Below are positions 43,304 through 57,181 of a DNA stretch of 64,000 bases, piece by piece. Position 1 is the first letter of the stretch, and every line of letters begins with the position of its first letter. The DNA is from a virus, in the IMG/VR virus record IMGVR_UViG_3300032246_000761, positions 5,099 to 69,098 of that record. One strand, 5' to 3'. A program made the translations under genes and the position numbers. The notes beneath the pieces were generated by a model, which did no database searches, was not told where the DNA came from, and saw nothing but the letters and a program-made list of their open reading frames with translations.

Positions 43304-44704
43304 ATGGCATATACAATAATTAATACTACAGATACACTAGAACAAATGCGAGTTAAGTTAAACAACTTGACTACAAATGATTTTGGCAATCCTGCTTTAT
43401 TGGCGCCAGCTGGTATAGCATCAACATCTATTGTTGGTGCTGTTATAGAATTAGCAGCAATTGCTTATTCTGGCGCAGGTTGGTCGGTTAAAGATTCAGC
43501 AAATAACATTCAAGGTATTGGTTCGGGAGAAACATTAAGAGTATTAGGAACAACAAATCAAATTAATGCTGTTGTAAGCGCTACAGATACTTTAACTTTA
43601 AGTTTACCAACAAATGTTATTATATCTGGTTATTTTCAAGGTAGTAACTTTTCCACAAGTTCAGGAAACATAACAGCTAGCGGAACATTACACACATTAG
43701 GTACAATAGAAATCAGTGGTAATAATATTAGATCAACAGATTCTACTACAGTTAGAATTAATGATTCTTTAAGTATTAATGGTACTGTGTCGGCAACTTC
43801 AATATCTTCAACAGGATCTATTTCGGGAACCACTATTACAGGTACTGGTGCTGTTTCTGGAACAACTATTACAGGTTCATCTACAATTCAAGGTTCTGAT
43901 TTAGTTTTAACAGGTTCATTAGGAATTCAATTTGAAGGATCTACCGCAGATAATTTTGAAACAACTTTAGTTGTTGTTGATCCAACAGCTGATAGAACAA
44001 TTACATTACCAAATGTAACGGGTACGGTTGTTACTACAGGTGATGTAGGTACTGTTACGAGTACTATGATTGCTGATGGTACTATTAATAATGATGATAT
44101 TGCTGATGGAACTATTAGAGGTTCTAAATTAAATTTAGCTTCAGATTCAGTAACATTTGGTACAGTTACAGCATCTAATTTTATAGGAACATCATTAATT
44201 GCTTCTACTATAGCATTAAGTTCTGATAATAGTTCTAATACTACAAACTATTTAACTTTTTCTGCTACTGCAACAGGAAATCAAAGTTTAAAAACAGATA
44301 CAGATTTATCTTACAATCCTTCTACAAATGTTTTATCTACAACTGCTACTGCAGCAAGATATGCCGATTTAGCCGAGATTTATGAAACGGATGAAGAATA
44401 TGAAGTTGGTACTGTTATAATGATTGGTGGAGAAAAAGAAGTTACAAAATCTTTTGTTGGTTGTAGAGCAATTGGTGTTATATCGGAAAGACCTGCTTTT
44501 TTGATGAACGCAGAAGGAAAAGGTCAACCAGTTGCATTAAAAGGTCGTGTTAAAGTAAAAGTTTCAGGTCCTGTTAAAAAAGGAGATGAATTGGTTGCTG
44601 GTAATGACGGTTATGCTGCTACTATTAGTGAAGAATTTACAAAAGTATTTGCGATAGCATTAGAAGATAATGACAAAGGCTTAATCGAGGCAATTATACT
44701 ATAA
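43304..44704 (+). CDS. Tail fibre/spike protein with C-terminal intramolecular chaperone-like domain
   Basis: TDTLEQMRVKLN N-terminus, T/S/G-rich shaft, PTADRTITLPN, and C-terminal ARYADLAEIY...PVALKGRVKVKV. Confidence 0.75.
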   Translation: MAYTIINTTDTLEQMRVKLNNLTTNDFGNPALLAPAGIASTSIVGAVIELAAIAYSGAGWSVKDSANNIQGIGSGETLRVLGTTNQINAVVSATDTLTLSLPTNVIISGYFQGSNFSTSSGNITASGTLHTLGTIEISGNNIRSTDSTTVRINDSLSINGTVSATSISSTGSISGTTITGTGAVSGTTITGSSTIQGSDLVLTGSLGIQFEGSTADNFETTLVVVDPTADRTITLPNVTGTVVTTGDVGTVTSTMIADGTINNDDIADGTIRGSKLNLASDSVTFGTVTASNFIGTSLIASTIALSSDNSSNTTNYLTFSATATGNQSLKTDTDLSYNPSTNVLSTTATAARYADLAEIYETDEEYEVGTVIMIGGEKEVTKSFVGCRAIGVISERPAFLMNAEGKGQPVALKGRVKVKVSGPVKKGDELVAGNDGYAATISEEFTKVFAIALEDNDKGLIEAIIL

Positions 44705-44728
44705 TTTAATCGTACTAAATATTACAGT

Positions 44729-45178
44729 ATGATTGATGCTTTAACTGATGAAATTTTATCTTTCCCTAGATACGAAAACAATCAAATAATTTATATAGAT
44801 AAGGAAGGTAAAGACTATAAAGTTAAAGAAAAAATAACTTATGGTACTTGGATCAAAACCTACAAAGATATTCCTAATATAAAAATTGAAGGTTTAGAAG
44901 ATAAATCATTTCATTTAAAAATATTAAAAAATTTTAAATTAAATCATAAAGTAAATAGTGTTCATTTGTTTTACAATCAATATGGTGGATTTTCTTTTCC
45001 TGAACATGCGGATGACACTAACGTTCTTTTATATATTGTAAAAGGATCAAAAAAAGTTTATATAGATAAACATCCAGTTTTAGTAAAAGAAGAACAAGCT
45101 GTTTTTATACCAAAAGGATTAAAACACGAGGTTGATAGTTTACCAAACACTTGGGCATTAAGTATAGGATTTAACTAA
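44729..45178 (+). CDS. JmjC/cupin oxygenase (YcfD/ROX-like)
   Basis: SFPEHADDTNVLLYIVKGSKKV and FIPKGLKHEV (HxD...H). Confidence 0.75.
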   Translation: MIDALTDEILSFPRYENNQIIYIDKEGKDYKVKEKITYGTWIKTYKDIPNIKIEGLEDKSFHLKILKNFKLNHKVNSVHLFYNQYGGFSFPEHADDTNVLLYIVKGSKKVYIDKHPVLVKEEQAVFIPKGLKHEVDSLPNTWALSIGFN

Positions 45179-46215
45179 TGAATTGGATGTTTTATTTAAA
45201 GACAACGGAAACTTGTCAATTAAATTGCAAACACTGTTTTACTAGTGGTATAAACGGTAAAAAAATTTACTTTGATCATTTCAAAACAATAGATTTTATA
45301 AAAAGATTTAGACAATATTTTAATAAAGATGAAGATACTATTCATTTAGAATTTCATGGAGGCGAACCATTTTTAGCGCCTGTATCTCATATGAACAAAG
45401 TATATGAAGAATGTAAAGACTTGTGGCCAAGTATGTCATGGGGTATAACTTCAAATCTTGTTTTTAAATTAAAAGATGAACATTACGAATTTATAAAAGG
45501 ACCTTTAAACAATCGTATAGGTACTAGTTGGGATCCTAAGATACGATTTGAAAATGATGCACAATATAATTTATGGGAAAAAAATGTAAAAGATTTGTTA
45601 AATCTCGGTGTTACAATTAAATTATTTATCAGTGTAACTAAAGATACTATAACAATGGAACCAATTAAATTATTAAAGTGGATCAAAGAGTTGGGAGTAC
45701 AAGAGATATCATTTGAACGATTAACAGGTAATGGTAATGCTAAATTACATCCTGAGATATTTCCTGATAATATAGAACAAGATAAATGGTTTCTTAAAAT
45801 GCACAATCAGTCTAAACAGTTTGATTGTAGGAGTTGGTTTGATAATGAAACATTAGAAGTGATATACAGTAAATTTGAAACAGGGTTTTTAAAAGGTGGT
45901 ACGTTTTGTAGAGACTGTGAACAGAAGATATTTACAATAAACGCAGATGGTACAATATCTGGATGCCCCAATTCTGCACCGGAGTTCTCGTTTGGTACTA
46001 TAAATGACGATATACAAACCGTTATAAATAGTCCAGTTAGAATAGAAAACATTGCTTGTGAACGTTCAAGAAATCCTATATGTTTTTCTTGTGATGTTTT
46101 TGAGTTTTGTGGAGGCGATTGCCACCAACTTGCTTGGCAAGGTGATATATGTGGCGCACCTAAGAGTTTAATGAAGGAATTAAAAAGTAATATAAAATAT
46201 GACAACGTTAAATAA
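45178..46215 (+). CDS. Radical SAM/SPASM enzyme 1
   Basis: CQLNCKHC, FHGGEP, and SPASM cysteines C..INADG..GCP...CFSCDVFEFCGGDC. Confidence 0.93.
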   Translation: MNWMFYLKTTETCQLNCKHCFTSGINGKKIYFDHFKTIDFIKRFRQYFNKDEDTIHLEFHGGEPFLAPVSHMNKVYEECKDLWPSMSWGITSNLVFKLKDEHYEFIKGPLNNRIGTSWDPKIRFENDAQYNLWEKNVKDLLNLGVTIKLFISVTKDTITMEPIKLLKWIKELGVQEISFERLTGNGNAKLHPEIFPDNIEQDKWFLKMHNQSKQFDCRSWFDNETLEVIYSKFETGFLKGGTFCRDCEQKIFTINADGTISGCPNSAPEFSFGTINDDIQTVINSPVRIENIACERSRNPICFSCDVFEFCGGDCHQLAWQGDICGAPKSLMKELKSNIKYDNVK

Positions 46216-46771
46216 TCCAATTACACCACAAAATATTGTGGATAGATTTAAAGATTTTGTAACAGATACAGCAAATTCAACTATTATTTGGGGAACAGAT
46301 AGTAAACCTTTTTCTCAAATGCCTGACGCCACGTTTGAAGGTACAACTGCTGGAACTACGATAACATCTACAGGTTCTTCTATAGGTACAAGTGGCGGTA
46401 TAATTACAGCTGTTAATATTGTAAATGCTTTACTTACTGAAACTGCTCTTTATACTAACATAAGAAATTTAAGAGCATTATTAAATGTTACAGGTGGTGG
46501 TGGAAATAATGGAAGTTATGGATCTCCTGGTATAATTTATGATGCTACTAGTAAGGCAAATTTAAATATTACATATAGACAAACTTTAAATTCTGTTAAT
46601 GTATCAAGTGTGAGTACAAATAATACTATAACATCATCTAATTTGGAAACATTTTTTACAAATTTACAAACAGAATATAGCACACAATCTGCTAATACAC
46701 AAACAATACAAGTGGACGTATGCCATGCAAGTTGTCATAGTTCATGCCACAGCAACAGAGGAAGAAGATAA
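46199..46771 (+). CDS. Putative modified substrate/precursor: T/S/G/N-rich protein with C-terminal (CHxS)3-like motif
   Basis: Ends VDVCHASCHSSCHSNRGRR*. All Cys and His residues of the 190-aa protein lie in this tail. Confidence 0.7.
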   Translation: MTTLNNPITPQNIVDRFKDFVTDTANSTIIWGTDSKPFSQMPDATFEGTTAGTTITSTGSSIGTSGGIITAVNIVNALLTETALYTNIRNLRALLNVTGGGGNNGSYGSPGIIYDATSKANLNITYRQTLNSVNVSSVSTNNTITSSNLETFFTNLQTEYSTQSANTQTIQVDVCHASCHSSCHSNRGRR

Positions 46772-47463
46772 TGCAAATAATTGAAACAACGGCACCAATA
46801 TCAATAGAAGATTTAAAAAAATATTTTACAAATAAAGACACCTTTTATATAATTGATTGTTCTAAAAGTCAAATGAAAGGATCAAAATTATTAACATATT
46901 TAAGTAATTTGGATTTACCTGTAGATATAAAAGAACCAGATTTAGAATTACTTAAAGAATATTTTAATAGTATTTCTTTAGTAAATATCAATTCATTAGA
47001 AAATATTGCGATTAATGTTTTATTACAATATAAAGGTTTAGTTAAAGAAAATAATTATAAAGATTTTATTGAACAAAACAAAGAAATTATTTCTAAATGG
47101 TCTGATAAATTAGACAGTTTAACAATATTCAATGCTTACATTGTAAATTCTGATTTATTAAGAGATTATGCAAAAACTTTTCCAAAGGATGATACTAAAG
47201 ATTTAACAGGTGTTAATTTTTTAAGCCTATTAAAACATGAAAGATTTTATTCGTTTTATAATAAATTAAATAAAAATGTAAAATTTTATACTCATTATTT
47301 TGATGATTATATGTTTAGAGGTAAAAATTTGTTCAGTTTTTGGGGCAATCTAAATAATCCTATGTTTTTATTGACACTGGCAGTATCTCAAGGAAAAAAT
47401 AAAGATTATATAACAGCAAAAAAACAAGATAAGGAATTAATAAAAAATGTTACATCTATTTAA
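46771..47463 (+). CDS. Hypothetical protein of the rSAM cluster (likely start 46771)
   Basis: TAATG overlap; IETTAPISIEDLKKYF...LLTYLSNLDLP. Confidence 0.7.
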   Translation: MQIIETTAPISIEDLKKYFTNKDTFYIIDCSKSQMKGSKLLTYLSNLDLPVDIKEPDLELLKEYFNSISLVNINSLENIAINVLLQYKGLVKENNYKDFIEQNKEIISKWSDKLDSLTIFNAYIVNSDLLRDYAKTFPKDDTKDLTGVNFLSLLKHERFYSFYNKLNKNVKFYTHYFDDYMFRGKNLFSFWGNLNNPMFLLTLAVSQGKNKDYITAKKQDKELIKNVTSI

Positions 47464-48595
47464 AAAAATTTATTTAGAACATGACGTAAATATAGATTAT
47501 AATTACGATAGAGTAGTTATATCCGAATTAAATGGTGTTCAAAATTGGAGTGAAATAGAAAAAATTTCAAGCGGAAAACTCATATCTTATGGTAAAAATT
47601 TAAATAGTTTAAATGGAATAGTTTCCTTTATAAATTTACTTGACACAGTTAATCAACAAACAATACAAACTAATAAACCAGTTTACATTTATGCTGATAA
47701 AAATAACTATTACAAGATAATAAGTTTGTGGTATAAAATTATATTACCAAACGCTTCTTTAGAAGATGTAATATCTTATGTTAAATTAAATTTTGCTTAT
47801 AAAAATTTTTGGAAATATGTAAGAAGAAATAAAGAAATGATTTCAGATAATTTTTTATTTGATGAAACAAAACTAATAACAGAATATAATGCTATTTTCG
47901 TTGACAGAAATGAATATTTGTCTTTTATTGATGATAACGTAGGAAGTTTTAGTATTGAATTATTATTATCTTCTTATATGTATAATGGTTCAAGAAAAGA
48001 AGAATTAAAAAAATCACTATTAACATTAATTAAAATAGAAATATCAAGATGTCTTTATGAATATAAAGAACTTCTATTAATGAATTTAGCAGATAATGAT
48101 TATTTAAATTCTTTAGGTGCAAATAAAAATTATACTATTGATAATCTTCTTGAAATAGTTGAAGATCAATCTCCTATATTAAAAACAATGTTTGATCCAA
48201 ATATTTGGAAAATTGTAGGAAATGGAGTATATGATATAACTACAAATCTTTTAAATACAAATTCAGATGATATGATTTATTTTAAAAATATAACTGACAC
48301 TGATATTGATAATATAGAAAGATTTTTAAATATAACTAGTGGTAATAATCCTAACGTAAACGGATTTGCTTTGATCGAAATAATTTTGAATACTTTAAAA
48401 ATAATTAAAAAAGGTTCTATTACCGATTCTGAATTAGATGAAATTTTAGATCACCAAACTTCACAAGGTGTTATGCACACAACTGGTGTTTTTTATAGTT
48501 CAAGCCATCCAACAGTCAACACTTACTTTATACAACATATTTTTAAATTGGTTAAAAACGAAAATATTATTCCATTAGGTTCATATGTCATATAA
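47447..48595 (+). CDS. Hypothetical protein of the rSAM cluster
   Basis: 382-aa ORF overlapping the previous gene; no motif recognised. Confidence 0.65.
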   Translation: MLHLFKKIYLEHDVNIDYNYDRVVISELNGVQNWSEIEKISSGKLISYGKNLNSLNGIVSFINLLDTVNQQTIQTNKPVYIYADKNNYYKIISLWYKIILPNASLEDVISYVKLNFAYKNFWKYVRRNKEMISDNFLFDETKLITEYNAIFVDRNEYLSFIDDNVGSFSIELLLSSYMYNGSRKEELKKSLLTLIKIEISRCLYEYKELLLMNLADNDYLNSLGANKNYTIDNLLEIVEDQSPILKTMFDPNIWKIVGNGVYDITTNLLNTNSDDMIYFKNITDTDIDNIERFLNITSGNNPNVNGFALIEIILNTLKIIKKGSITDSELDEILDHQTSQGVMHTTGVFYSSSHPTVNTYFIQHIFKLVKNENIIPLGSYVI

Positions 48596-48597
48596 AG

Positions 48598-49641
48598 GTG
48601 AAAATGCAAGAAGATATATCATTTTACAAAGTAATAGATAAAAAAGTTATAGATTGGTCTGAAATTGTTTTATGTTTATTTGAGCATTGCAATTTATTAT
48701 GTGCCTTTTGTCCACAAGATCATTCAAGTATATTGGGTGCCTCAGAAGAAGAAATCTTAAATAAAGTTTCAACAATAACTCGTTACATTGAACGAAACAA
48801 TAGATCAAAACATTTTATCATTAATACTATGGGTGGCGAACTGTTACAAGATACCTGGACAGATAAAGGATTCTTAAATATATATTCTAAATTTATAAAA
48901 CAAGTTAGAGAAAAGGTTTCTTCTGATAAAACAATTGTATTTAATTTTGTTACCAATCTTGTATTTGATAGAACAGATTTAATATTAGATTTTGTTAAAA
49001 AAAATAATATTGTATTATCGGTTTCTTATGACATTATAGGTAGATTTAATGCAACAACGTTAGAAATTTTTAAAAAAAATATAGATATTTTTAAGCCTTA
49101 TATAAAAACAATTAGTTGTGTTTTAACAAAACAAAACATAGAAAAAATAATTGAAGGAGATGAATATTTTGATTACTTATATGAAAATTTTAAAACAATA
49201 TATTTTGATTCTTTATTACCAAGTGTAACTAGAAAAACAAATATTTTTATGATGCCCGCAGAATCAGAAACATTTAAATTCTATAAGTTATGTGTTGACA
49301 AATATCCCAAAATTTTAAACATAGAACCATTTTTAAATGGTAAAACAAATAATAAAATGACTTGCACAAAAGGGAATAGTTTAACTATTATGCCTGATGG
49401 AAGTATACCTAAAGGATGTTCAGGTGCGGTACTATTAAAAGACGCAACTCAAAATACAGAAGATTTAGGCGGTACTAAAATTATTGAAAACTTTATGAAA
49501 AAATATAATTGTTTTGAATGTGAGTTTTTTCAAAGATGCCCTTTTACTTGCTTTATAAAACAAGATTTTAAATTTATTGAACATGATATGAAAGAATGTG
49601 TGTTTAAGGAAACATTTAGATATGCTGATTCAAAAAAGTAA
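48598..49641 (+). CDS. Radical SAM/SPASM enzyme 2
   Basis: CNLLCAFC, MGGE, and C..IMPDG..GC...CFECEFFQRCPFTC. Confidence 0.9.
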   Translation: MKMQEDISFYKVIDKKVIDWSEIVLCLFEHCNLLCAFCPQDHSSILGASEEEILNKVSTITRYIERNNRSKHFIINTMGGELLQDTWTDKGFLNIYSKFIKQVREKVSSDKTIVFNFVTNLVFDRTDLILDFVKKNNIVLSVSYDIIGRFNATTLEIFKKNIDIFKPYIKTISCVLTKQNIEKIIEGDEYFDYLYENFKTIYFDSLLPSVTRKTNIFMMPAESETFKFYKLCVDKYPKILNIEPFLNGKTNNKMTCTKGNSLTIMPDGSIPKGCSGAVLLKDATQNTEDLGGTKIIENFMKKYNCFECEFFQRCPFTCFIKQDFKFIEHDMKECVFKETFRYADSKK

Positions 49642-51289
49642 AATTGCATTTGTAAATCCGCCTCACGCTGATTGGGCTTTAGCAAATAATATGACTTATT
49701 TAATGATGCAAAGTCATTATAAAAGATTTGGCAAATACTATAATAAATTTGAATGGTTAGAAGCCCCATATAGATTCAATCAATATAAAAATGTAGAGGA
49801 AATATATAACGAAATACCGAATGCAAATATCTATTTGATTAGTAGTTATGTTTGGAATTATGATCTATGCGATTTATTTGTGGAACACATTAAGAAAGTA
49901 AACAAAGATGCAATATGTATTTTAGGTGGTCCTCATATAGGTACAAACGATACTGAGTTTTTCAAAACAAGACCAAACTACGATTTTATATGTCAGCCCA
50001 CAAAACCTGGTGAAGTTTTTATAGAAGATTTTTTAAATTCTTATATAGACAATAAAGGTAAAGTTAACAAACAAGATATTAGTTGGGAAATCAATAGTAA
50101 AAAACAAACTAAATGTGGGTTACCTGATTACTCAATATACGAAGAACATTTTGATTACTTGAAAAAAACATGTGATTATTCTAAACAAAATAAATTGGAA
50201 TCTTCCCTTGTTTTAGAAACTACAAGAGGTTGTCCATACAAATGTGTTTATTGTGAATGGGGGGGAGGATTAGATACTAAAATTATAACTAAAAAAGTTG
50301 ATATTGTTAAAAAAGATATTGTTGCCATAAAACTTGCAGGTTATACTAATGCCTTTTTAACTGATGCTAATTTTGGCGCCTTTGAAAACCGAGATTTGGA
50401 AATATTTAAATTTGCTTGGGAACAAGGAGTAAATCTTACAGATATATCTACAATAAAGTCTAAAGATTTAGATAGAAGAAAACGTTTGGTGGATTGTTGG
50501 TTTGAAATAGTAGTTCCTAAAAAAGAAAACAGAAATGCTAAATATGCGAAAGATGGTATTTTTATTGTGCCTACTGTTGCGATTCAAAGCATATCAGATG
50601 AGGCCATGAAAGTGGCTAAACGAGTTGATCTAACGTCAGAAGATAAAATTAAATTGAGTAAATACATAGAAAAACAATGTAGAGAAAAAGGTTATCCTGT
50701 TCCTGCATTAGAATTAATATTAGGAATGCCAGGTTCTACACTAAAAGATTTCTATGATGAAATGGAATTAATATGGGATTTTAAAGCATTTAGTCAAAAT
50801 AGACATGACTATATGATTTTACCAGATAGTGTTCTAAGTAAAAAAGAATACTTGGATGAATACAAAATTCAACCAGTAAAAGTTTATACAGATTTAATTG
50901 ACGAAGATGGTGTAGATAATCTTTATAGTTTATATAAAACAAAAAAGAATTACTTTTATACCATACAAAGCTGTTATAGTTTTACTAAAGAAGATATGCA
51001 CGAAATGTGGTTTATGAATCAAGCGTGTAATATATTATTTGAATTGATTTATCCTTTATATAAAAATCAAATATGTCCAAGTGATTTTTGTAAAGAATGT
51101 TATAAGATATTAAAAATATTACCTGAATTTAGAGAGATAAATAATTACATAATTGATTTGTTAGATATTAATACTGAACCTAAAAGTATTAAAAAAATAA
51201 ATGGTAAATTAAGAACGGATGTTTTTAATGAAATTGTTTCAAATAATAAAAGTATTGTAATAAGTGAACTATTTAAAAAATTAAATTAA
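49622..51289 (+). CDS. Cobalamin-binding radical SAM enzyme (class B-like; start approximate)
   Basis: N-terminal SSYVWN...ILGGPH B12-binding-type domain, GE motif, ETTRGCPYKCVYCEWG, DANFG and ELILGMPG. Confidence 0.88.
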   Translation: MLIQKSKIAFVNPPHADWALANNMTYLMMQSHYKRFGKYYNKFEWLEAPYRFNQYKNVEEIYNEIPNANIYLISSYVWNYDLCDLFVEHIKKVNKDAICILGGPHIGTNDTEFFKTRPNYDFICQPTKPGEVFIEDFLNSYIDNKGKVNKQDISWEINSKKQTKCGLPDYSIYEEHFDYLKKTCDYSKQNKLESSLVLETTRGCPYKCVYCEWGGGLDTKIITKKVDIVKKDIVAIKLAGYTNAFLTDANFGAFENRDLEIFKFAWEQGVNLTDISTIKSKDLDRRKRLVDCWFEIVVPKKENRNAKYAKDGIFIVPTVAIQSISDEAMKVAKRVDLTSEDKIKLSKYIEKQCREKGYPVPALELILGMPGSTLKDFYDEMELIWDFKAFSQNRHDYMILPDSVLSKKEYLDEYKIQPVKVYTDLIDEDGVDNLYSLYKTKKNYFYTIQSCYSFTKEDMHEMWFMNQACNILFELIYPLYKNQICPSDFCKECYKILKILPEFREINNYIIDLLDINTEPKSIKKINGKLRTDVFNEIVSNNKSIVISELFKKLN

Positions 51290-51290
51290 T

Positions 51291-51812
51291 ATGAAAGAAT
51301 TGAATTTATTTCCAACAAAAATATATACAGATAATATTGATAAAGAGTATTGTCTTTTATTATCTTCTTGGTCTTTACAACAAACATTATATTTTTCAGA
51401 TGAAGATGATAATTGGACTATTGAAGATGTTAAACAAAAATTGAATGATCCTATTTTAAAAAATTTATTTAATAAAACTAAAGGAGTAATTAGAGATATT
51501 TGGTTAAGAAACGAACATGATCATTTTGATTTACATTGTGATGATCATCACAATACTACTCATATAGCTATCGTTTGGGTTAGTGGAGAAAATAATAAAG
51601 GAGGAGATTTAATATTATATGATCCACTTTGGAGAAATCCTCAAAAATTAAAAAAAAATGAGTGTACTTTTACTCATACTATAAAATTTGAAATTGGTAA
51701 AATAGTTATTTTTCCTAGTAATGTATGGCATAAAGTAACAAAATATAATGGTAATGAAAAAAGATTAGTAATTAATGTTGCATTGGATTTGAAAAATGGA
51801 TTTGATAATTAA
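51291..51812 (+). CDS. 2OG-Fe(II) oxygenase
   Basis: LFPT start, HCD, GGDLILYDP, and IFPSNVWHKV...R. Confidence 0.8.
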   Translation: MKELNLFPTKIYTDNIDKEYCLLLSSWSLQQTLYFSDEDDNWTIEDVKQKLNDPILKNLFNKTKGVIRDIWLRNEHDHFDLHCDDHHNTTHIAIVWVSGENNKGGDLILYDPLWRNPQKLKKNECTFTHTIKFEIGKIVIFPSNVWHKVTKYNGNEKRLVINVALDLKNGFDN

Positions 51813-52887
51813 ACCTACTGAACTATGTAACTTTAAATGTACTTTTTGTTCTAGTACAAAGATATCTGAAAACAGAAAAGACGAACTATCTCACGATTAT
51901 ATATTTTCATTTTTAAAACGTTTTCCTGAAACAAAAACTATTATAGTTAATGGTGGAGATCCTTTAATGATGGAACCTGAATATTATTGGAAAATTATTA
52001 GGTGGTTGGATGAACATGATTATGATACTTCTATTGCATTAACTACAAATCTATGGCCGTTTTATAAAAAACCAGAGAAGTGGTCTGATCTATTTAATAA
52101 TGAAAGAGTTGGCATAACTACTTCGTTTCAATATGGTGGTGGCCGTCTTAAAGGTGATTTAACAGAATTTACGGAAGAAGATTTTTGGAAATGTTCAGAC
52201 GCAATGTTGAAACATTGTGGTTATAGACCAGATTTTATATCTGTTATTGTTCCTGAAAATGAAAAAGACGCAATTAAAAATGTAGAGCTTGCTAAACGTA
52301 TGAGTGAAAATGTTACGCCCGATGGAACATTACATAACTTTTCACGTAATAGTAAGACTGGTGTTGAATGTAAATTAAACTATGCAATGGCCAGCGGCGA
52401 ACAAGGTAAACCTTATTTGCTAAGTAAGATATATCAAATCTATGTAGAAATATGGAAACGTGGTCTTGCGCCTTGGGAATTTAATACAAAACAAATGATA
52501 CAAAGATTAACTGGTGGAAGAACATCATGTCCTCAAAATCGTAAATGTGATAGTGGTATTCGTGCATTAAATCCTAGTGGTGATTATTATTCTTGTGGAT
52601 CGTTTGGTGATGATAAAGATAAATCTATAGATTTTGATAAAGAAATGGAAGGTGAGTTTTTTACACCGTTACAAGATGATATTAATCTTATTAGTATGAA
52701 GAAGTCCTGTTTTACTTGTCCTATGTTTGAGATATGTAATGGTTGCCGAAAGACTGTTAAGGATTTGAAACAACATAATATGGTAGAAGAACATTGTAAG
52801 TTAATGAAATCTATTGCACCAGATATACTTAAATCTAACGGACTAAATATAGAAGTAACACCTTATATAAATGAAAGTATATTATGA
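51796..52887 (+). CDS. Radical SAM/SPASM enzyme 3
   Basis: IKPTELCNFKCTFC, NGGDP, and C...LNPSGDYYSC...CFTCPMFEICNGC. Confidence 0.93.
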   Translation: MDLIIKPTELCNFKCTFCSSTKISENRKDELSHDYIFSFLKRFPETKTIIVNGGDPLMMEPEYYWKIIRWLDEHDYDTSIALTTNLWPFYKKPEKWSDLFNNERVGITTSFQYGGGRLKGDLTEFTEEDFWKCSDAMLKHCGYRPDFISVIVPENEKDAIKNVELAKRMSENVTPDGTLHNFSRNSKTGVECKLNYAMASGEQGKPYLLSKIYQIYVEIWKRGLAPWEFNTKQMIQRLTGGRTSCPQNRKCDSGIRALNPSGDYYSCGSFGDDKDKSIDFDKEMEGEFFTPLQDDINLISMKKSCFTCPMFEICNGCRKTVKDLKQHNMVEEHCKLMKSIAPDILKSNGLNIEVTPYINESIL

Positions 52888-53468
52888 AAAACTACAAAAC
52901 AAATTATGGAAAAGTAATTGCAGGTATTGATACAGATGATAATGACAAATATTTTTCTATTACAGTTAGTCCTTATGAGCCAAATTTTGAAGATAATTTA
53001 GAAGAAGGAATAAAAGAAGTCGTATTTGCTTTCTTGAATAAAAATTATATGACTATTAATAGTTGCGAAGGACACGATTCTGGATGGGATAGTCCTTATA
53101 TAACTTTGGCCTTTGTAGAAGAAAATGAAAGAAAAGATATAATAAAAAAAATAGAAAAAATACCTTTTATTACATTTGAATTAAAAAAATATATTTTTAA
53201 TATTAAATTTGTAGAAAAAAATAATAAAAAATTTAAAATAATAGATGAAAGTGAATATGACGTTAAATTAGAAGCGCAATCCGTTAACAATTTATATTTT
53301 AAAAAATATAAAAATTATTGTTATTTAGAAATAGTATTTTTTAAATATAGTGATAATTTGTTTCAAAGATATTTTATGCTTTTTATGAAACGATTGTTTT
53401 TTAAAATTATTAAAAATAAACTAATAAGTATAATAAAAAGTAAAGAATTTTCTGTTTATGACAAATAA
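52884..53468 (+). CDS. Hypothetical protein with a TxxSCEGH motif
   Basis: LEEGIKEVV...YMTINSCEGH. Confidence 0.55.
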   Translation: MKNYKTNYGKVIAGIDTDDNDKYFSITVSPYEPNFEDNLEEGIKEVVFAFLNKNYMTINSCEGHDSGWDSPYITLAFVEENERKDIIKKIEKIPFITFELKKYIFNIKFVEKNNKKFKIIDESEYDVKLEAQSVNNLYFKKYKNYCYLEIVFFKYSDNLFQRYFMLFMKRLFFKIIKNKLISIIKSKEFSVYDK

Positions 53469-54051
53469 TATGAATGAAGGATTAAATTATAGTTGGCCTA
53501 CACCAATATTAAAAGATACTATCACTGATAAAAGTATATTAGATAATGTTGTCAATCATATCTTATCTAATTACAATTCTGAAGATTTAAAAATTTCATT
53601 AAGTATTAAAGATCAAAATCTATTTGATGATAAACAATTTGATACTTTTAAAGAAAAGATTGTTATACCTTCTTTCCAAAAATACATAGAATTACAAAAT
53701 TTTAATATTAATCTATCTCAAAAAGAATTTCATTTGAAGGCATGGATAACAGGTAACAAGTCATCTTATTTTGTTCCAAAGCATAATCATTCTGGCGCTC
53801 ATTTGTGTGCTGTATTTTATTTGCTTTGCGAAGAACAAAATCAAGGTGGCGCATTAGCAATACATGACCCTAGACATAATGCAAATAGAGGATATACTTC
53901 TGAGTTTAATGAATGGTTTAAAGCTATAAGATTTTTTCCTAAATCAGGCGACATAGTTGTATTTCCAAGCTTTGCGTATCATAGTGTAGAAACTTTTTTT
54001 GGAAAAATGAGATTGGCTGTGCCTGTAGATTTATTTTTAAAAGATGATTAA
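53458..54051 (+). CDS. 2OG-Fe(II) oxygenase (TIGR02466-like)
   Basis: WPTPI, HNHSGAHLCAVFY, DPR, and FPSFAYHSV...R. Confidence 0.85.
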   Translation: MTNNMNEGLNYSWPTPILKDTITDKSILDNVVNHILSNYNSEDLKISLSIKDQNLFDDKQFDTFKEKIVIPSFQKYIELQNFNINLSQKEFHLKAWITGNKSSYFVPKHNHSGAHLCAVFYLLCEEQNQGGALAIHDPRHNANRGYTSEFNEWFKAIRFFPKSGDIVVFPSFAYHSVETFFGKMRLAVPVDLFLKDD

Positions 54052-54550
54052 TATTGAACTACATAAATATAATTTTATTACAAAAGGATTTACAGTATTC
54101 CAAGGTAAAAAATATACTGATCTTGTAAATCTTGATACTATTGAATGGAATTTTCCTGGCACAGATAACGACTATCATCCTACTGGAGATACTAAACAAT
54201 TAGATAAGGCTTTAATGGCCATACATTTTAATATTTCAAATGAGATAGTACAACCTATGTTTGGTCAACACATTATAGGAGATCGTCAAATGTGGGAAGG
54301 AATTTATAACAAAGCAAGTAAATGGCATAATGATATAGAAGAATGTAATTTCTTTTTTATATTATATTTTTCGGAAATGAGAAAATATAAACAAGGAGAA
54401 ATTGAATTTAAAACAGATAAAGATAAGTGGACATTTTATCCAAGCGTGGGTTCATTAATATTGGTTAACAATGACACAAAATTTCAGCATAGAGCAGGTA
54501 AAACGGATAAACAAAGAATACAAGCTTCTTTCTATTTTAATTATATATGA
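54044..54550 (+). CDS. 2OG-Fe(II) oxygenase
   Basis: WHND...FQHRA...R. Confidence 0.8.
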   Translation: MINIELHKYNFITKGFTVFQGKKYTDLVNLDTIEWNFPGTDNDYHPTGDTKQLDKALMAIHFNISNEIVQPMFGQHIIGDRQMWEGIYNKASKWHNDIEECNFFFILYFSEMRKYKQGEIEFKTDKDKWTFYPSVGSLILVNNDTKFQHRAGKTDKQRIQASFYFNYI

Positions 54551-55119
54551 TAAACAAAGGTTTTAATAACTGCTGGCCAACACCTATACTAAAAGATTGT
54601 ATAAAAGATAAAAAATTATTAAATCTTATAGTTAGTTATATTCATTTAAATTACATTAATAAAGATATTACAGATAAAAATATACTTGAAGATACATTTT
54701 TTAATTCATTGGTTGATAATGAAATATTGCCTATATTTAATAAATATTTAAATTCTATTAATATAGAATTAACAGAAGAACAATATTTTTTAAGAGGAAC
54801 CGTAATAGGTTCTAATATTATTAATACTGTACCCACTCACAATCAATATGATTCTCATATTACCGGTTTGTTTTATTTATTATCTGATGAGAAAGAAACT
54901 GGTGGCACTTTAACACTTAAAGACCCCAGATTTAATGCGGATAGAGGATATCATTTAAATAAAAAATTTAAAAATTGGTTTCAGACAAAAATTATAACTC
55001 CTCAAACAACAGATGTTATTATTTTTCCTAGTTTTGCGTATAATAATATTGATATATCTTATGGTAAAATAAAATTGATTATGCAAATCGAATTAACATT
55101 ATTAAAAGATTATGAATAA
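54547..55119 (+). CDS. Degenerate TIGR02466-like oxygenase, paralog of 53458..54051
   Basis: WPTPILKD, DPRFNADRGY and FPSFAY are shared, but HNH is now HNQ and the distal His is Asn. Confidence 0.7.
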   Translation: MINKGFNNCWPTPILKDCIKDKKLLNLIVSYIHLNYINKDITDKNILEDTFFNSLVDNEILPIFNKYLNSINIELTEEQYFLRGTVIGSNIINTVPTHNQYDSHITGLFYLLSDEKETGGTLTLKDPRFNADRGYHLNKKFKNWFQTKIITPQTTDVIIFPSFAYNNIDISYGKIKLIMQIELTLLKDYE

Positions 55120-56038
55120 TATAAAAATATCTATAAATCCTAGTTACTTTTGTAATTTTAGATGCGACTTTTGTTATCTTACACCTGAACAATTAGGAGA
55201 TCAAAAAAAAATACCACTTAAAATACTTGATCAGAGACTTAAAGAAATTAGTAAAATTAGAAAGATTGATTGGGTAGATTTGTATGGCGGTGAAATAGGT
55301 GCGTTAAAAAAAGATTATTTCTATGGATTAAAAGATGTTATAAGAAAATACTATAAAGACAAAATTAATATAATAACAAATCTTTCAATGCTACATGAAG
55401 GGTTTTTTCAATCAGATTTTTATTTGGGCGTAAGTTATGATTTTGAAGCTAGAGAAAAGTCTGATTTGGTTTACAATAATATGTTTCATAGTCCTGTACC
55501 AATTGCTGTATTAATACTTGCTAGTCAAAAAGTATTAGAGATGAATGTAGATGATATGATACAAAAAATGAATTTATGTTCCAGTATAGAAAGTGTAGAG
55601 ATTAAACCATATTCTATAAATCAAGCCAATTCTCAAACAGTTACTCATAAAGATTTTGAATTATTTGTAAAAAAATGGATAGAAAGTCCTATTAAAAAAA
55701 GATTTGATTTTATAAATGAAGGTAACATAATTAGAAGTTTAAAAAAAGAATATAACGCTTTTTCAAACAACCATGTTTATATAACACCTAATGGAAATTT
55801 TGCTGTATTGGAGTTTGATAAAAATGATAAAGAATATTTTTTAGAATTAAATTCAATTAAAGAATATGTAAAATGGGCTGAACAAGAACCTATCAACAAT
55901 GTTTCAGATATATGTAGAAAGTGTAAATATTATGGCCATTGTTTAACGGAACATTATCGCTATGTAAAAGACTTGGATAATGGTTGTAATGGATATAAAG
56001 GATTATTAGATTATTATGAAAAAAGAATGGAAAATTAG
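55112..56038 (+). CDS. Radical SAM enzyme 4 with a partial SPASM domain
   Basis: NPSYFCNFRCDFC, YGGE, and C-terminal CRKCKYYGHC...C. Confidence 0.9.
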   Translation: MNNIKISINPSYFCNFRCDFCYLTPEQLGDQKKIPLKILDQRLKEISKIRKIDWVDLYGGEIGALKKDYFYGLKDVIRKYYKDKINIITNLSMLHEGFFQSDFYLGVSYDFEAREKSDLVYNNMFHSPVPIAVLILASQKVLEMNVDDMIQKMNLCSSIESVEIKPYSINQANSQTVTHKDFELFVKKWIESPIKKRFDFINEGNIIRSLKKEYNAFSNNHVYITPNGNFAVLEFDKNDKEYFLELNSIKEYVKWAEQEPINNVSDICRKCKYYGHCLTEHYRYVKDLDNGCNGYKGLLDYYEKRMEN

Positions 56039-56426
56039 ACAAGAATTATATCATAGAATGGTTACAGATCATGCTGATGATCTTAATAAAATACCAGTAG
56101 AATTTTCTAATGATGTGGTTGAAAATGCTGTAAAATATTTTTATAGTAAAGATATGCCTTTTATATATCCTTCTAAAAGTTATGTAGTAGCTATATGTTA
56201 TGCCTATTGGCTATCAAAAGATTTTGGTGAAGATTTTTATGAATTATTGAATGATAGTGATTTGTTGTATGGAAACGATCCTTATTTTAAGATTTATGAT
56301 GAAGATATAAATACCTATGACAGTATATTAAATAAAATTATGCCTTTAAATGAAACCAAAGGTATCGTTCCTGATATAAAACAATATTACAAGAAAGAAT
56401 TTTTAATAGATGAATCTCAATTTTGA
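56016..56426 (+). CDS. Hypothetical protein of the rSAM cluster
   Basis: 136 aa; IYPSKSYVVAICYAYWL...LLYGNDPYF. Confidence 0.65.
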   Translation: MKKEWKIRQELYHRMVTDHADDLNKIPVEFSNDVVENAVKYFYSKDMPFIYPSKSYVVAICYAYWLSKDFGEDFYELLNDSDLLYGNDPYFKIYDEDINTYDSILNKIMPLNETKGIVPDIKQYYKKEFLIDESQF

Positions 56427-57171
56427 TATTAAGTTTGACGTTTTTAAATTTCACGAAATAGGCTTTAATGTTGGATTATTACCTAATGATGTTGTTCAAG
56501 AAGCAAAATCTATAATTAAAAATACAAAATTTAAAAATTTTGTAGAAGTGAATGAAAAAAAGAAAATTGAAGATATAAATTTAAATAATCAATTTCCTGT
56601 TGCAGCTTCTTGGTCGCAAATGCCTTATGATACTTTAACAACTATAATGTCTCCAAACAATTCTACCGAATTAAAAGAAATATTTACTATTAATGATTTT
56701 CCATATGAAGAAAGATTGAGAGAATTATATTGTTTTAATAACGCACCATTAGAAGTTAAAAATTTAGCAAATAAGGTGATTACAATGGATTTTTTTAAAC
56801 CTTTAAGAGAGAGTTTTGTTAGAGAACAACATAAAAATACTTCCTGGTTAAGAACAATAAAATCATTTACATATGGTCTTTGGAATGGAACAGAAGATTT
56901 ACCTTGGCATAATGATACTGATGATTGCTGTAATATGATGTTATTAATATATTTCAACGATTATAATGAATGGAAACCAGAATGGAATGGCCAAATATGT
57001 TTTGGTAAAGAACAAGAAGATGGAAGTGTTAAAGAAATACATCAACATTATCCTACTGATGGTACGTTTGTTTGTATCAATAATTACAATCCTTTAATGA
57101 GACATAAAACAATAGCAAACAACCATACTAAAAACAGATATACGTTTAATTTTAAATTTAAGTTTGAATAG
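56410..57171 (+). CDS. 2OG-Fe(II) oxygenase (prolyl-hydroxylase-like)
   Basis: LPWHND, LIYFN...WKPEWNGQI and MRHK...RY motifs. Confidence 0.85.
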   Translation: MNLNFDIKFDVFKFHEIGFNVGLLPNDVVQEAKSIIKNTKFKNFVEVNEKKKIEDINLNNQFPVAASWSQMPYDTLTTIMSPNNSTELKEIFTINDFPYEERLRELYCFNNAPLEVKNLANKVITMDFFKPLRESFVREQHKNTSWLRTIKSFTYGLWNGTEDLPWHNDTDDCCNMMLLIYFNDYNEWKPEWNGQICFGKEQEDGSVKEIHQHYPTDGTFVCINNYNPLMRHKTIANNHTKNRYTFNFKFKFE

Positions 57172-57173
57172 TA

Positions 57174-57181
57174 TATAAATA
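57174..57181 (+). promoter_or_regulatory. T4-type late promoter
   Basis: TATAAATA immediately after the rSAM operon. Confidence 0.7.

What the first reader, a model, noticed from the sequence alone, without database searches (positions are those of the whole stretch)
44729..57171. Phage-encoded RiPP-like operon (5 radical SAM, 6 oxygenase-fold genes, Cys/His-tailed substrate) inside the tail-fibre module
Seen: 16 co-oriented, overlapping or abutting genes lie between a fibre gene and the GT/fibre genes. They are four SPASM-type rSAMs, one cobalamin-binding rSAM, one JmjC/cupin, five 2OG-Fe(II)-fold genes, four unknowns and one 190-aa protein ending CHASCHSSCHSNRGRR. A CTAAATA late-promoter variant precedes the operon (~44715). 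Known: rSAM/SPASM enzymes are mainly peptide/protein maturases (thioether and C-C crosslinks); class B rSAMs methylate unactivated carbons; JmjC ROX enzymes hydroxylate His/Arg. Inference: a dedicated late pathway that heavily modifies a virion protein, or makes a peptide product or metallophore. I know of no characterised phage system like it.
Basis: partly seen in the sequence, partly recalled or inferred. Interest (0 to 1): 0.95.

Follow-up and report, generated by a model that had tools for sequence, protein, structure and literature searches.

The report
Phage radical-SAM cassette maturing Cys-His-tailed protein
A block of sixteen phage genes next to the tail-fibre genes looks like an enzyme kit that chemically modifies the nearly unchanging Cys-His-rich end of one small protein, and I found the kit in many phages but explained in no paper.

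Summary
Window 44729-57171 carries 16 abutting + strand genes: a cupin, four radical-SAM (rSAM) enzymes, a cobalamin-type rSAM, five 2OG-oxygenase-fold proteins (one lacks its metal motif), four unknowns and a 190-aa protein ending VCHASCHSSCHSNRGRR.

A tail CHxxCHxxCHxxRxRR-stop is encoded in all 90 sources examined, using 75 distinct DNA sequences. It ends 140 of the best 150 of 812 family clusters. In 46 full-flank loci it sits with rSAM1 46, g04 46, rSAM2 46, g05 45, rSAM3 44, rSAM4 44, g15 42 and cupin 39. The kit also occurs in jumbo phages (DT01, RSL2 group, Atu_ph07) and on a Bdellovibrionales chromosome, beside fibre-like genes where I checked.

Best reading: a protein-maturation cassette whose substrate is this tail, serving the host-recognition module. 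The chemistry and virion location are inferred, not shown.

It is not a member of HXS, anSME or any curated rSAM family. The claimed late promoter is unsupported. Papers only list the genes.

This scan noted the same system before on other DNA (66 notes, at least 43 genomes).

The parts
43304..44704 (+). Upstream context: fibre protein (466 aa) with a C-terminal intramolecular-chaperone-type domain
   Evidence: Peptidase_G2 6.9e-5 (sub-threshold). PHROG tail-fibre families. Its C-terminal part is 45% identical to the protein upstream of the Atu_ph07 cassette.
44715..44721 (+). CTAAATA motif claimed as a late-promoter variant; not supported as a promoter
   Evidence: Present but ends 7 nt before the ATG. 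TATAAATA is not enriched in the window.
44729..45178 (+). g01 cupin (core gene)
   Evidence: Cupin_2 4.4e-7 above cut-off; JmjC_2 below cut-off. Orthologues first in the cassette in DT01, RSL2 and Atu_ph07. Present in 39 of 46 full-flank loci.
45178..46215 (+). g02 rSAM1, rSAM/SPASM enzyme (core), overlapping the start of the tailed gene
   Evidence: SPASM PF13186 24.4 against 21.5. TIGR04085 33.4 against 27. CX3CX2C and CX2CX5CX3C. 42-51% identical in jumbo phages. 46 of 46 full-flank loci.
46199..46771 (+). g03, 190-aa candidate substrate: folded body (1-174, no Cys or His) plus a disordered tail
   Evidence: Sequence. AlphaFold2 pLDDT 86.9 with a low-confidence tail. No solved fold match. 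459 relatives and 812 clusters.
46721..46768 (+). Tail-coding segment (C-H-x-S/N)x3 R-G-R-R followed by the stop codon
   Evidence: Single pattern match, 0 expected. 91 such sites in 90 of 90 sources, 75 distinct nucleotide versions with synonymous codon turnover.
46744..47463 (+). g04, 239-aa unknown (core helper)
   Evidence: phrog_20767 2.5e-60. tblastn finds 15 jumbo-phage records. 46 of 46 full-flank loci. Model pLDDT 83, with no clear match to a solved fold.
47447..48595 (+). g05, 382-aa unknown (core in most lineages)
   Evidence: 45 of 46 full-flank loci. hhalign to DT01 99.2% and to RSL2 97.9%. The one Atu_ph07 ORF compared (L003:16176-17078) did not match. No PDB or Pfam match.
48598..49641 (+). 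g06 rSAM2, rSAM with SPASM Cys signature (core)
   Evidence: Radical_SAM sub-threshold. CX3CX2C and CX2CX5CX3C. 30-35% identical in jumbo phages. 46 of 46.
49598..51289 (+). g07 cobalamin-type (class B) rSAM, probable C-methyltransferase (accessory)
   Evidence: KedN5 family 2.1e-25. CysS and TokK structures 6e-16 and 6e-15. 28 of 46 full-flank loci. No blastp match in the three jumbo-phage loci; present in G140.
51291..51812 (+). g08 2OG-Fe(II) oxygenase (accessory)
   Evidence: 2OG-FeII_Oxy_5 4.3e-8. HCD...H. 12 of 46.
51796..52887 (+). g09 rSAM3, rSAM/SPASM (core; among the best-conserved genes, median identity 65% against 66% for rSAM1)
   Evidence: Radical_SAM 7.7e-9 above cut-off. anSME structure 3e-6 over the N-terminus only. 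51-65% identical in jumbo phages. 44 of 46.
52884..53468 (+). g10, 194-aa unknown (accessory)
   Evidence: No family. 8 of 46.
53458..54051 (+). g11 2OG-Fe(II) oxygenase (frequent accessory)
   Evidence: 2OG-FeII_Oxy_5 2.7e-12. 37 of 46. Orthologues in DT01 and RSL2.
54044..54550 (+). g12 2OG-oxygenase-fold protein (frequent accessory)
   Evidence: 2OG-FeII_Oxy_3 5.8e-4, below cut-off. WHND...H. 34 of 46.
54547..55119 (+). g13 2OG-fold paralogue without the metal-binding motif (probably inactive)
   Evidence: 2OG-FeII_Oxy_5 9.6e-5, below cut-off. No HX[DEH].
55112..56038 (+). g14 rSAM4, rSAM with a reduced C-terminal Cys set (core)
   Evidence: Radical_SAM 5.5e-6, sub-threshold. CX3CX2C, and CX2CX5C only. 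43-51% identical in jumbo phages. 44 of 46.
56016..56426 (+). g15, 136-aa unknown (core helper)
   Evidence: phrog_20737 3.4e-47. About 42% identical in all three jumbo phages. 42 of 46. No Pfam, PDB or NCBIfam match.
56410..57171 (+). g16, 253-aa 2OG-oxygenase-like protein (accessory)
   Evidence: BLASTP to g12 at 3e-7 around WHND...H. HND motif. 10 of 46.

Best explanation
The block is a self-contained protein-maturation cassette.

Substrate. I take the substrate to be the 190-aa protein g03. It has a folded alpha/beta body of no known fold and a disordered C-terminal 16-mer, (Cys-His-x-Ser/Asn)x3-Arg-Gly-Arg-Arg-COOH.

Core genes. The core travels together across unrelated phages. It consists of the cupin, four distinct rSAM enzymes without a recognisable leader-binding domain, and three unknown helpers (g04, g05, g15).

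Accessory tailoring genes. This window adds a cobalamin rSAM (C-methylation) and four to five 2OG oxygenase-fold proteins (hydroxylation).

Proposed mechanism (inferred). Each rSAM abstracts a hydrogen from the tail and installs a different modification. Candidates are Cys thioether links, His/Ser cross-links of the kind HxsC makes, or Cys-to-formylglycine oxidation. The oxygenases and the methylase then decorate the result.

Proposed role (inferred). The product stays attached to its body and works with the fibre/baseplate apparatus in adsorption, envelope penetration or DNA entry.

Shown here: gene content, co-occurrence, invariance of the tail under purifying selection, and a fibre-module context in each lineage whose neighbours I checked.

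Inferred only: the enzyme-substrate link, the chemistry and the virion location.
For: (1) Tail conservation. The tail is near-universal while the body diverges.
- 122 of 123 proteins end in the motif, and the remaining one reads through it.
- 140 of the best 150 representatives of 812 clusters end CHxxCHxxCHxxRxRR.
- All 90 sources encode it, with 75 distinct DNA versions. Cys uses TGC and TGT, and Ser uses both AGY and TCN.
- The third unit, the RxRR and the stop codon were not part of the search patterns.

(2) Independent route. Searching with g04, not the tail, found jumbo phages. All 3 examined carry cupin, rSAM1, a tailed protein and g04 in that order.

(3) Co-occurrence in 46 full-flank loci: rSAM1 46, g04 46, rSAM2 46, g05 45, rSAM3 44, rSAM4 44, g15 42, cupin 39. 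The genes are collinear in 42 of 46.

(4) Conservation pattern. rSAM1, rSAM3 and rSAM4 are better conserved than the candidate substrate: median identity 66/65/64% against 49%.

(5) Enzyme type. rSAM1 and rSAM3 resemble peptide and protein maturases (PapB, anSME, DynA, HxsB/C, CXXX-repeat family), all far below family cut-offs.

(6) Tail variants behave like a modifiable core: one protein with five repeated CH units, tandem duplicated tailed genes, and two-unit variants.

(7) Host-recognition context.
- Fibre or virion-structural genes lie directly upstream in the window, DT01, RSL2 and Atu_ph07.
- A fibre-like gene lies beside the chromosomal Bdellovibrionales copy.
- A fusion joins the g03 body to a Gly_rich_2 domain.
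- Papers place rSAM cassettes in the pelagimyophage host recognition cluster (PMC7029224, passages) and in the structural cluster of Aeromonas phage 332-Vera (PMC12390700, passages).

(8) Precedent. HxsB/C/D mature the HxS-repeat protein HxsA (PMC13128918).
Against: - No direct evidence exists that any enzyme touches the tail.
- No modification mass and no expression data are available.
- Every rSAM scores far below the cut-off of every curated family, so the chemistry cannot be read from homology.
- No leader-recognition (RRE) domain, protease or exporter was detected.
- The body and the helpers match no solved fold, so a structural role is not visible in the fold.
- All GenBank records seen label the tailed protein 'hypothetical'. 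I could not confirm that it is in virions.
- rSAM enzymes are generally oxygen-sensitive while 2OG oxygenases need O2 (established knowledge). Their action in one aerobic host needs explaining.
- An earlier check of the same claim on other DNA reported that 'part of it fell', with the part unspecified.
Confidence: 0.6

Rival explanations
1. A true RiPP pathway. The 175-residue body is an unusually long leader. The modified Cys/His tail, or each of several cores, is cut off and released as a small peptide such as a metal-binding or antibacterial compound.
For: The tail is disordered and terminal. A five-unit multi-core variant exists, as in multi-core RiPP precursors. The rSAM hits are mostly RiPP maturases. 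Cys/His-rich products could bind metals (inference).
Against: No protease, exporter or immunity gene was recognised in the core. The body is confidently folded and has conserved positions of its own. The body occurs fused to a Gly-rich domain. The position inside fibre modules is conserved.
Confidence: 0.15
2. g03 is not a substrate but a metal or Fe-S carrier, scaffold or redox partner for the rSAM enzymes. These enzymes would act on something else, such as a fibre protein, a glycan or a small molecule.
For: Three Cys-His pairs are plausible metal ligands (inference). Multi-cluster rSAM enzymes need Fe-S supply (established knowledge). The scan's first-reader note on this window reports an IscA-type Fe-S carrier elsewhere in the window (not tested here).
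Against: Two-unit, shifted and five-unit tail variants fit a fixed metal site poorly. The invariant RxRR end has no obvious role in metal binding. No alternative Cys/His-rich target is visible, and the neighbouring fibre has a single Cys. No known rSAM system uses such a partner (recalled).
Confidence: 0.1
3. The enzymes are auxiliary metabolic or nucleic-acid or sugar-modifying genes (DNA hypermodification, cofactor or LPS chemistry). g03 would be an unrelated structural neighbour.
For: Authors of phage papers guessed DNA repair or metabolism (PMC8541153, passage). Weak viperin-, MoaA- and QueE-like hits cover the N-terminal rSAM core. Glycosyltransferases lie downstream.
Against: Those hits cover only the generic rSAM core and fall far below cut-offs. 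The glycosyltransferases are not part of the conserved set. The strict linkage of the enzymes to the tailed gene across lineages and rearrangements would be unexplained.
Confidence: 0.05

Closest known systems
HXS antiphage system (HxsA matured by rSAM HxsB/HxsC with HxsD; PMC13128918, abstract and section 9 read)
   Same: Several rSAM enzymes plus a small helper mature a protein-sized substrate. That substrate carries short His-x-Ser repeats in a basic context. The phage tail holds two to three HxS/HxN units followed by RGRR.
   Different: No gene reaches the Hxs family cut-offs. HxsB scores 39.8 against 370, HxsC 31.1 against 267.9, and there is no HxsA or HxsD hit. Here each unit also has an invariant Cys, the motif is strictly C-terminal, there are four or more rSAMs plus a cupin, and no signal peptide or peptidoglycan-binding domain was seen. 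The system sits in phage fibre modules, not in a bacterial defence locus.
Anaerobic sulfatase-maturating enzyme (anSME) acting on sulfatase proteins
   Same: A leaderless rSAM/SPASM enzyme that modifies a Cys or Ser in a protein. It is the best solved-structure hit of rSAM3 (3e-6) and a top NCBIfam hit of rSAM1 and rSAM3. The last tail unit, C-x-x-x-R, loosely recalls the sulfatase C-x-P/A-x-R motif (recalled, not tested).
   Different: Scores are 40-42 bits against a cut-off of 349, and the structure match covers only residues 2-78. The middle position is mostly Gly or Ser, not Pro or Ala. No sulfatase is present.
QhpD/QhpC (quinohemoprotein amine dehydrogenase maturation)
   Same: An rSAM/SPASM enzyme that installs several Cys thioether cross-links in a small protein subunit that stays a protein (recalled). 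It gives a weak hit to rSAM2.
   Different: E-value 0.0016 and 17 bits against a cut-off of 453. The substrate and the context are unrelated.
CXXX-repeat / ranthipeptide (PapB, SCIFF-type) rSAM peptide maturases
   Same: Targets with Cys every fourth residue. PapB and the CXXX-repeat family are among the rSAM1 hits.
   Different: 47.6 bits against 340 and 32.5 against 350. Those targets are short peptides with leaders and RRE-bearing enzymes (recalled). Here the target is a 190-aa folded protein.

Membership tests
HXS system (HxsA-D) | HxsB equivalog (TIGR03978, cut-off 370 bits) | tested here: not met
   rSAM1 scores 39.8 bits over its N-terminal 118 residues only.
HXS system (HxsA-D) | HxsC equivalog (TIGR03977, cut-off 267.9 bits) | tested here: not met
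   rSAM3 scores 31.1 bits over residues 8-86.
HXS system (HxsA-D) | HxsA repeat protein and HxsD small partner | tested here: not met
   No NCBIfam hit at E <= 0.01 for g03, g04 or g05, nor for g15 or g10.
HXS system (HxsA-D) | His-x-Ser repeats in a basic context on the substrate | tested here: met
   H-A-S, H-S-S and H-S-N followed by RGRR in the window. The first unit is H-x-S in all 75 distinct versions. That Ser was part of the search pattern in the fetched loci, but it is also constant in the word-seeded set.
rSAM/SPASM peptide or protein maturases (generic) | CX3CX2C SAM-cluster motif | tested here: met
   Present in all five rSAM genes.
rSAM/SPASM peptide or protein maturases (generic) | C-terminal SPASM auxiliary-cluster domain | tested here: met
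   rSAM1 passes PF13186 and TIGR04085. rSAM2 and rSAM3 carry CX2CX5CX2-3C, though the rSAM3 HMM score of 21.4 is under 27. rSAM4 has only a reduced Cys set.
RiPP pathway (strict sense) | Short precursor with a leader recognised by an RRE domain, and a released core peptide | tested here: inconclusive
   The candidate substrate is a 190-aa protein with a confident fold. No RRE, protease or exporter family was hit, but g04, g05, g15 and g10 remain unknown.
Anaerobic sulfatase-maturating enzyme | TIGR03942 equivalog (cut-off 349.45 bits) | tested here: not met
   rSAM1 scores 41.6 bits and rSAM3 40.3 bits.
CXXX-repeat target rSAM maturase | TIGR04115 (cut-off 350 bits) with a Cys-every-fourth-residue target | tested here: not met
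   The enzyme scores 32.5 bits. The target spacing itself is present.
Class B (cobalamin) rSAM methyltransferase | N-terminal B12-binding domain followed by an rSAM core | tested here: met
   Alignment to the CysS and TokK structures over residues 64-427. KedN5 family 2.1e-25. The Pfam B12-binding hit itself is below cut-off at 16.6 against 32.1. Cobalamin use is not testable here.
JmjC / ribosomal-oxygenase hydroxylase | JmjC_2 domain (PF08007, cut-off 22 bits) | tested here: not met
   16.8 bits. Only the generic Cupin_2 passes.
Known anti-phage defence systems (PADLOC 2023) | Any defence family hit beyond the generic rSAM core | tested here: not met
   Only weak pVip hits to the first ~100 residues of the rSAM core, plus two hits to candidate-system models: PDC-M51A on g07 (1.4e-13, residues 66-278) and PDC-M48A on g04 (5.5e-4). 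No named defence system was matched. HXS may post-date this library.

The most novel reading that the evidence does not exclude
Phages of several unrelated lineages, and some predatory Bdellovibrio-like bacteria, use four or more rSAM enzymes to build a cross-linked, Cys/His/Arg-based chemical 'warhead' on the C-terminus of an accessory protein of their cell-attack apparatus. This would be the first enzymatic radical tailoring of a virion or host-recognition protein. Its role could be metal-dependent adhesion, envelope penetration or guidance of DNA entry. It might also be the attacker-side counterpart of the bacterial HXS barrier, which uses a similarly matured His-x-Ser protein to block DNA entry.
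Probability: 0.3. Interest if true: 0.9.

Novelty: new variant of a known kind. Interest (0 to 1): 0.8.

Why it matters
- If the tail is modified as proposed, large phages run a multi-enzyme radical pathway on one of their own proteins. That is a level of virion or host-recognition chemistry not described for phages in the papers I could search.
- The family is large: 812 clusters at 50% identity.
- It spans T4-like aquatic myophages, nucleus-forming-type jumbo phages of plant and animal pathogens, and a predatory bacterium's chromosome. Its function therefore bears on host range, and on phages already proposed for biocontrol (the RSL2 group, S13, Atu_ph07, DT01).
- It offers four uncharacterised rSAM families with a defined, short, easily assayed candidate substrate.
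- It is a natural comparison for the HXS defence system.

Tried and rejected
Searches and models that gave nothing usable:
- Nucleotide search of the operon against the phage collection: no match. tblastn with the window's g03: no match. Its relatives were reached through g04 and through profiles instead.
- Structure route for g03. Foldseek against the PDB gave nothing at E <= 0.001. VIA-align wide gave a best Z of 3.8. BFVD returned only orthologues and three larger uncharacterised proteins.
- Structure route for g04. Foldseek gave nothing. VIA-align gave a best Z of 4.6 over 55 residues. The PDB profile search gave nothing. The Atlas gave no usable hit.
- g05 and g15. PDB profile searches gave nothing useful. 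Pfam on 20 g15 members gave only DUF2396 in 2 members at 0.019. The Atlas gave a rank-30 lead to rifampin ADP-ribosyltransferase (score 0.92, 120 shared features), which no HMM supports.
- Complex prediction of rSAM1 with g03: 'no answer', score 0.01. I use it neither for nor against binding.
- Sequencing runs: no RNA holder listed, so nothing can be said on expression.

Virion membership:
- GenBank labels are all 'hypothetical protein'.
- The S13 paper has no proteomics terms.
- Earlier scan notes say a counterpart was found in purified particles. Two word look-ups for the source found nothing. I therefore do not rely on that claim.

Rejected ideas:
- The tail as a DNA-level repeat, rejected because of synonymous codon turnover.
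- The cassette as a defence system.
- CTAAATA as a promoter.

Literature: ten searches found papers that list or remark on the genes, but none that names the tail or a function.

Full report
WHAT IS THERE

The window is a fragment of a T4-like myophage. It carries baseplate wedge, hub and tail genes and a 2031-aa VrlC-type protein. The record is 69 kb and is estimated 46% complete.

From 44729 to 57171 lie 16 + strand ORFs that overlap or are at most 2 nt apart. Family searches and motif checks give the following.
- A cupin (g01). Only the generic Cupin_2 model passes; JmjC_2 does not.
- Four rSAM enzymes (g02, g06, g09, g14). All carry CX3CX2C. Three carry the full SPASM cysteine signature, and g14 has a reduced set.
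- One class-B-type cobalamin rSAM (g07). It is closest to the solved CysS and TokK structures.
- Five 2OG-oxygenase-fold proteins (g08, g11, g12, g13, g16). g13 has lost the metal-binding motif.
- Four proteins with no family (g04, g05, g10, g15).
- g03, a 190-aa protein whose only Cys and His residues lie in its last 16 residues, CHASCHSSCHSNRGRR.

Upstream is a fibre protein with a chaperone-type C-terminus. Downstream are two small genes, then glycosyltransferase/methyltransferase genes on the other strand and a collagen-like fibre gene.

The CTAAATA motif exists. It ends 7 nt before the start codon, and the canonical TATAAATA is not enriched in this AT-rich window (18 found against 25.4 expected). 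I therefore do not count it as a promoter.

IS THE TAILED GENE LINKED TO THE ENZYMES?

I approached it in three ways.

First, I started from g04, not from the tail.
- tblastn found 15 records of jumbo phages: Pseudomonas pPa_SNUABM_DT01, the Ralstonia/Burkholderia RSL2 group, Agrobacterium Atu_ph07 and Sinorhizobium Phosso.
- In the three I opened, the order cupin, rSAM1, about 180-300-aa protein, g04 is kept.
- That protein ends CHTSCHTSCHSARGRR, CHSSCHTSCHGSRGRR or CHSSCHASCHNSRSRR.
- rSAM1 to rSAM4 and g15 are 30-65% identical to the window's copies. The tailed protein's body is only 28-38% identical over the stretches that BLAST aligned.
- g05 is recognisable by profile comparison in DT01 and RSL2. 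The one Atu_ph07 ORF I compared (L003:16176-17078) did not match.

Second, I started from g03.
- A word-seeded HMMER search found 459 relatives. Of the 123 proteins then held, 122 end in CHxxCHxxCHxxRxRR and one reads through it.
- An exhaustive profile search found 812 clusters at 50% identity with E <= 0.001. Of the best 150, 140 end in the strict motif. The other 10 are truncated or carry a one-residue insertion, a two-unit tail or a shifted middle unit.

Third, I fetched 86 loci with flanks: 6 of 40 pattern matches in genome contigs, and the best 80 of 121 confirmed matches in viral contigs. I scored their ORFs against the window's genes.
- In all 89 loci, counting the three jumbo phages, the counts are rSAM1 86, g04 82, rSAM2 80, g05 73, cupin 72, rSAM3 70, rSAM4 68 and g15 63. 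Many loci are cut by contig ends.
- In the 46 loci with full 10-kb flanks, the counts are rSAM1 46, g04 46, rSAM2 46, g05 45, rSAM3 44, rSAM4 44, g15 42 and cupin 39. The accessory genes are less regular: 2OG-b 37, 2OG-c 34 and the B12 rSAM 28. The core genes are collinear in 42 of 46.
- All 90 sources encode the tail followed by a stop codon, in 75 different nucleotide versions. Both Cys codons, both His codons and both Ser codon families are used. Selection therefore acts on the peptide, not the DNA.
- A caveat on ascertainment: the fetch patterns fixed the first two units. Only the third unit, the RxRR and the stop are independent observations in these loci.

WHAT KIND OF PROTEIN IS g03, AND WHERE DOES THE CASSETTE SIT?

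AlphaFold2, run on a 31-row alignment, gives a confident alpha/beta body (mean pLDDT 86.9). The tail is low-confidence and emerges after the last strand.

The body matches no solved structure. Foldseek gave nothing, and the best VIA Z was 3.8. In the viral model library it matches only its own orthologues and three larger uncharacterised myovirus proteins. g04 also models well (pLDDT 83) and has no clear match to a solved fold.

Two clusters of 461-aa proteins fuse a Gly_rich_2 domain to the N-terminus of a complete g03 body and tail.

The genes just upstream of the cassette are fibre or virion-structural proteins in the window, DT01, RSL2 and Atu_ph07.

Published genome papers make the same placement without explaining it.
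- The structural cluster of Aeromonas phage 332-Vera holds eight rSAM genes, called 'highly unusual' (PMC12390700, passage).
- The FLC6, S13, RP12/RP31 and DT01 papers merely list the genes. The DT01 paper guesses DNA repair.

OUTSIDE PHAGES

In a sample of 151 genomes of the order that holds locus L007 (a Bdellovibrio-labelled MAG), 2 have a match.

One of them carries the whole kit on a 299-kb contig. It has rSAM1 to rSAM4, the B12 rSAM, a 2OG gene, the cupin, g04, g15 and a tailed protein ending CHGSCHGSCHGSRGRR. The genes are rearranged on both strands. They lie between ordinary-looking bacterial genes: matches to a translation-elongation-factor family, a glutamine amidotransferase and a secretin-type protein, and a 1059-aa protein of an unnamed family. 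An integrase lies 13 kb away, and a protein with a phage tail-fibre C-terminal domain lies next to the kit. Linkage thus survives rearrangement and a change of carrier, and again sits beside a fibre-like gene.

A Rhodobacteraceae bin has six short tailed genes in three tandem pairs.

A 4.3-kb contig filed under a gut Firmicute carries g04, g05, rSAM2 and rSAM3 homologues and a tailed protein with five repeated CH blocks. Its ends look like sequencing-adapter and poly-G artefacts, so its attribution is doubtful.

HOW IT MOST LIKELY WORKS

The pattern has four parts:
- an invariant disordered C-terminal peptide on a diverging folded body;
- four conserved and mutually distant rSAM enzymes;
- conserved helpers of unknown fold;
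- variable tailoring enzymes.

This is the pattern of a maturation pathway whose substrate is the tail. The rSAMs resemble peptide and protein maturases (PapB, anSME, DynA/DarE, HxsB/HxsC, the CXXX-repeat family, QhpD), but only at 17-48 bits against cut-offs of 268-650. The reaction types are therefore open.

Candidate reactions, all inferred:
- thioether links from the three Cys;
- cross-links or other changes on the His-x-Ser triplets, as reported for HxsA (+8 Da on SHRSS; PMC13128918, section 9);
- oxidation of a Cys to formylglycine.

The class B rSAM would add C-methyl groups, and the oxygenases would add hydroxyls, perhaps on Arg or His.

Three observations make me favour a protein product acting with the fibre or baseplate over a released peptide. 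No protease or exporter was recognised. The body is folded and sometimes fused to a Gly-rich domain. The cassette keeps its place in fibre modules. This last step is the weakest, because I could not confirm the protein in any virion proteome.

COMPARISON AND NOVELTY

The closest described system is HXS. It too has rSAM enzymes plus a small partner maturing a protein with basic His-x-Ser repeats.

The phage kit works like it in outline but fails every membership test. It also differs in five ways: the Cys in every unit, the strict C-terminal position, the number of rSAMs, the cupin, and the carrier.

It is likewise not an anSME, not a CXXX-repeat system and not a recognised defence system.

Ten literature searches found no paper that names the tail or assigns a function. 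Supplements and non-open journals were not searchable.

I class it as a new variant of a known kind, namely rSAM maturation of a protein substrate. This scan has already noted the same system on other DNA (66 notes in at least 43 genomes). One earlier check reported that part of such a claim fell. For that reason I keep the virion location as inference.

VERDICT

- Observation: confirmed.
- Interpretation: partly supported.
- Confidence that the cassette modifies the g03 tail in the service of the host-recognition module: about 0.6.
- Interest: 0.8.

Noticed in passing
L009:3-362 (and the whole 4268-base contig): A tailed protein with five consecutive CH blocks separated by V/P-V linkers and a single RGRR end, next to g04, g05, rSAM2 and rSAM3 homologues. 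The contig is filed under a gut Firmicute. Its ends translate to adapter-like and poly-G strings, so the attribution is probably an assembly or contamination artefact.
   Followed up: partly
L093 (G140:C4:184000-203900), L094, L095: A complete but rearranged cassette on a 299-kb contig that looks bacterial, in a Bdellovibrionales genome. An integrase lies about 13 kb upstream and a 348-aa protein with a phage tail-fibre C-terminal domain lies next to it. Only 2 of 151 genomes sampled in that order have a match.
   Followed up: partly
L008:6062-6879 and two further contigs of G003: A Rhodobacteraceae bin holds six short (open frames of 129-144 aa) tailed genes arranged as three tandem pairs on three contigs.
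   Followed up: no
P0125 / P0126 (461 aa, metagenomic): A Gly_rich_2 (PF21722) domain fused to the N-terminus of a full g03 body and tail.
   Followed up: partly
window 54547-55119: The 2OG-fold paralogue g13 lacks any HX[DEH] motif, and the distal His of its neighbour g11 (FAYHSV) reads FAYNNI. It is probably a catalytically dead copy.
   Followed up: partly
The pelagimyophage paper states that its freshwater genomes lack rSAM genes (PMC7029224, passage).
   Followed up: no
window 57174-57181: A canonical TATAAATA sits directly after the stop of the last cassette gene and before the 73-aa and 115-aa genes. The 115-aa protein hits a tail-fibre-assembly PHROG and accompanies the cassette in 24 of 46 full-flank loci.
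   Followed up: no
window 56016-56426: The Atlas feature search gave a low-ranked lead from g15 to rifampin ADP-ribosyltransferase (Arr) clusters (score 0.92, 120 shared features). No HMM or PDB profile search supports it.
   Followed up: partly
window 49598-49641: The listed GTG start of the cobalamin rSAM overlaps the preceding rSAM2 gene by 44 nt. The true start may be an internal Met a few codons downstream.
   Followed up: no
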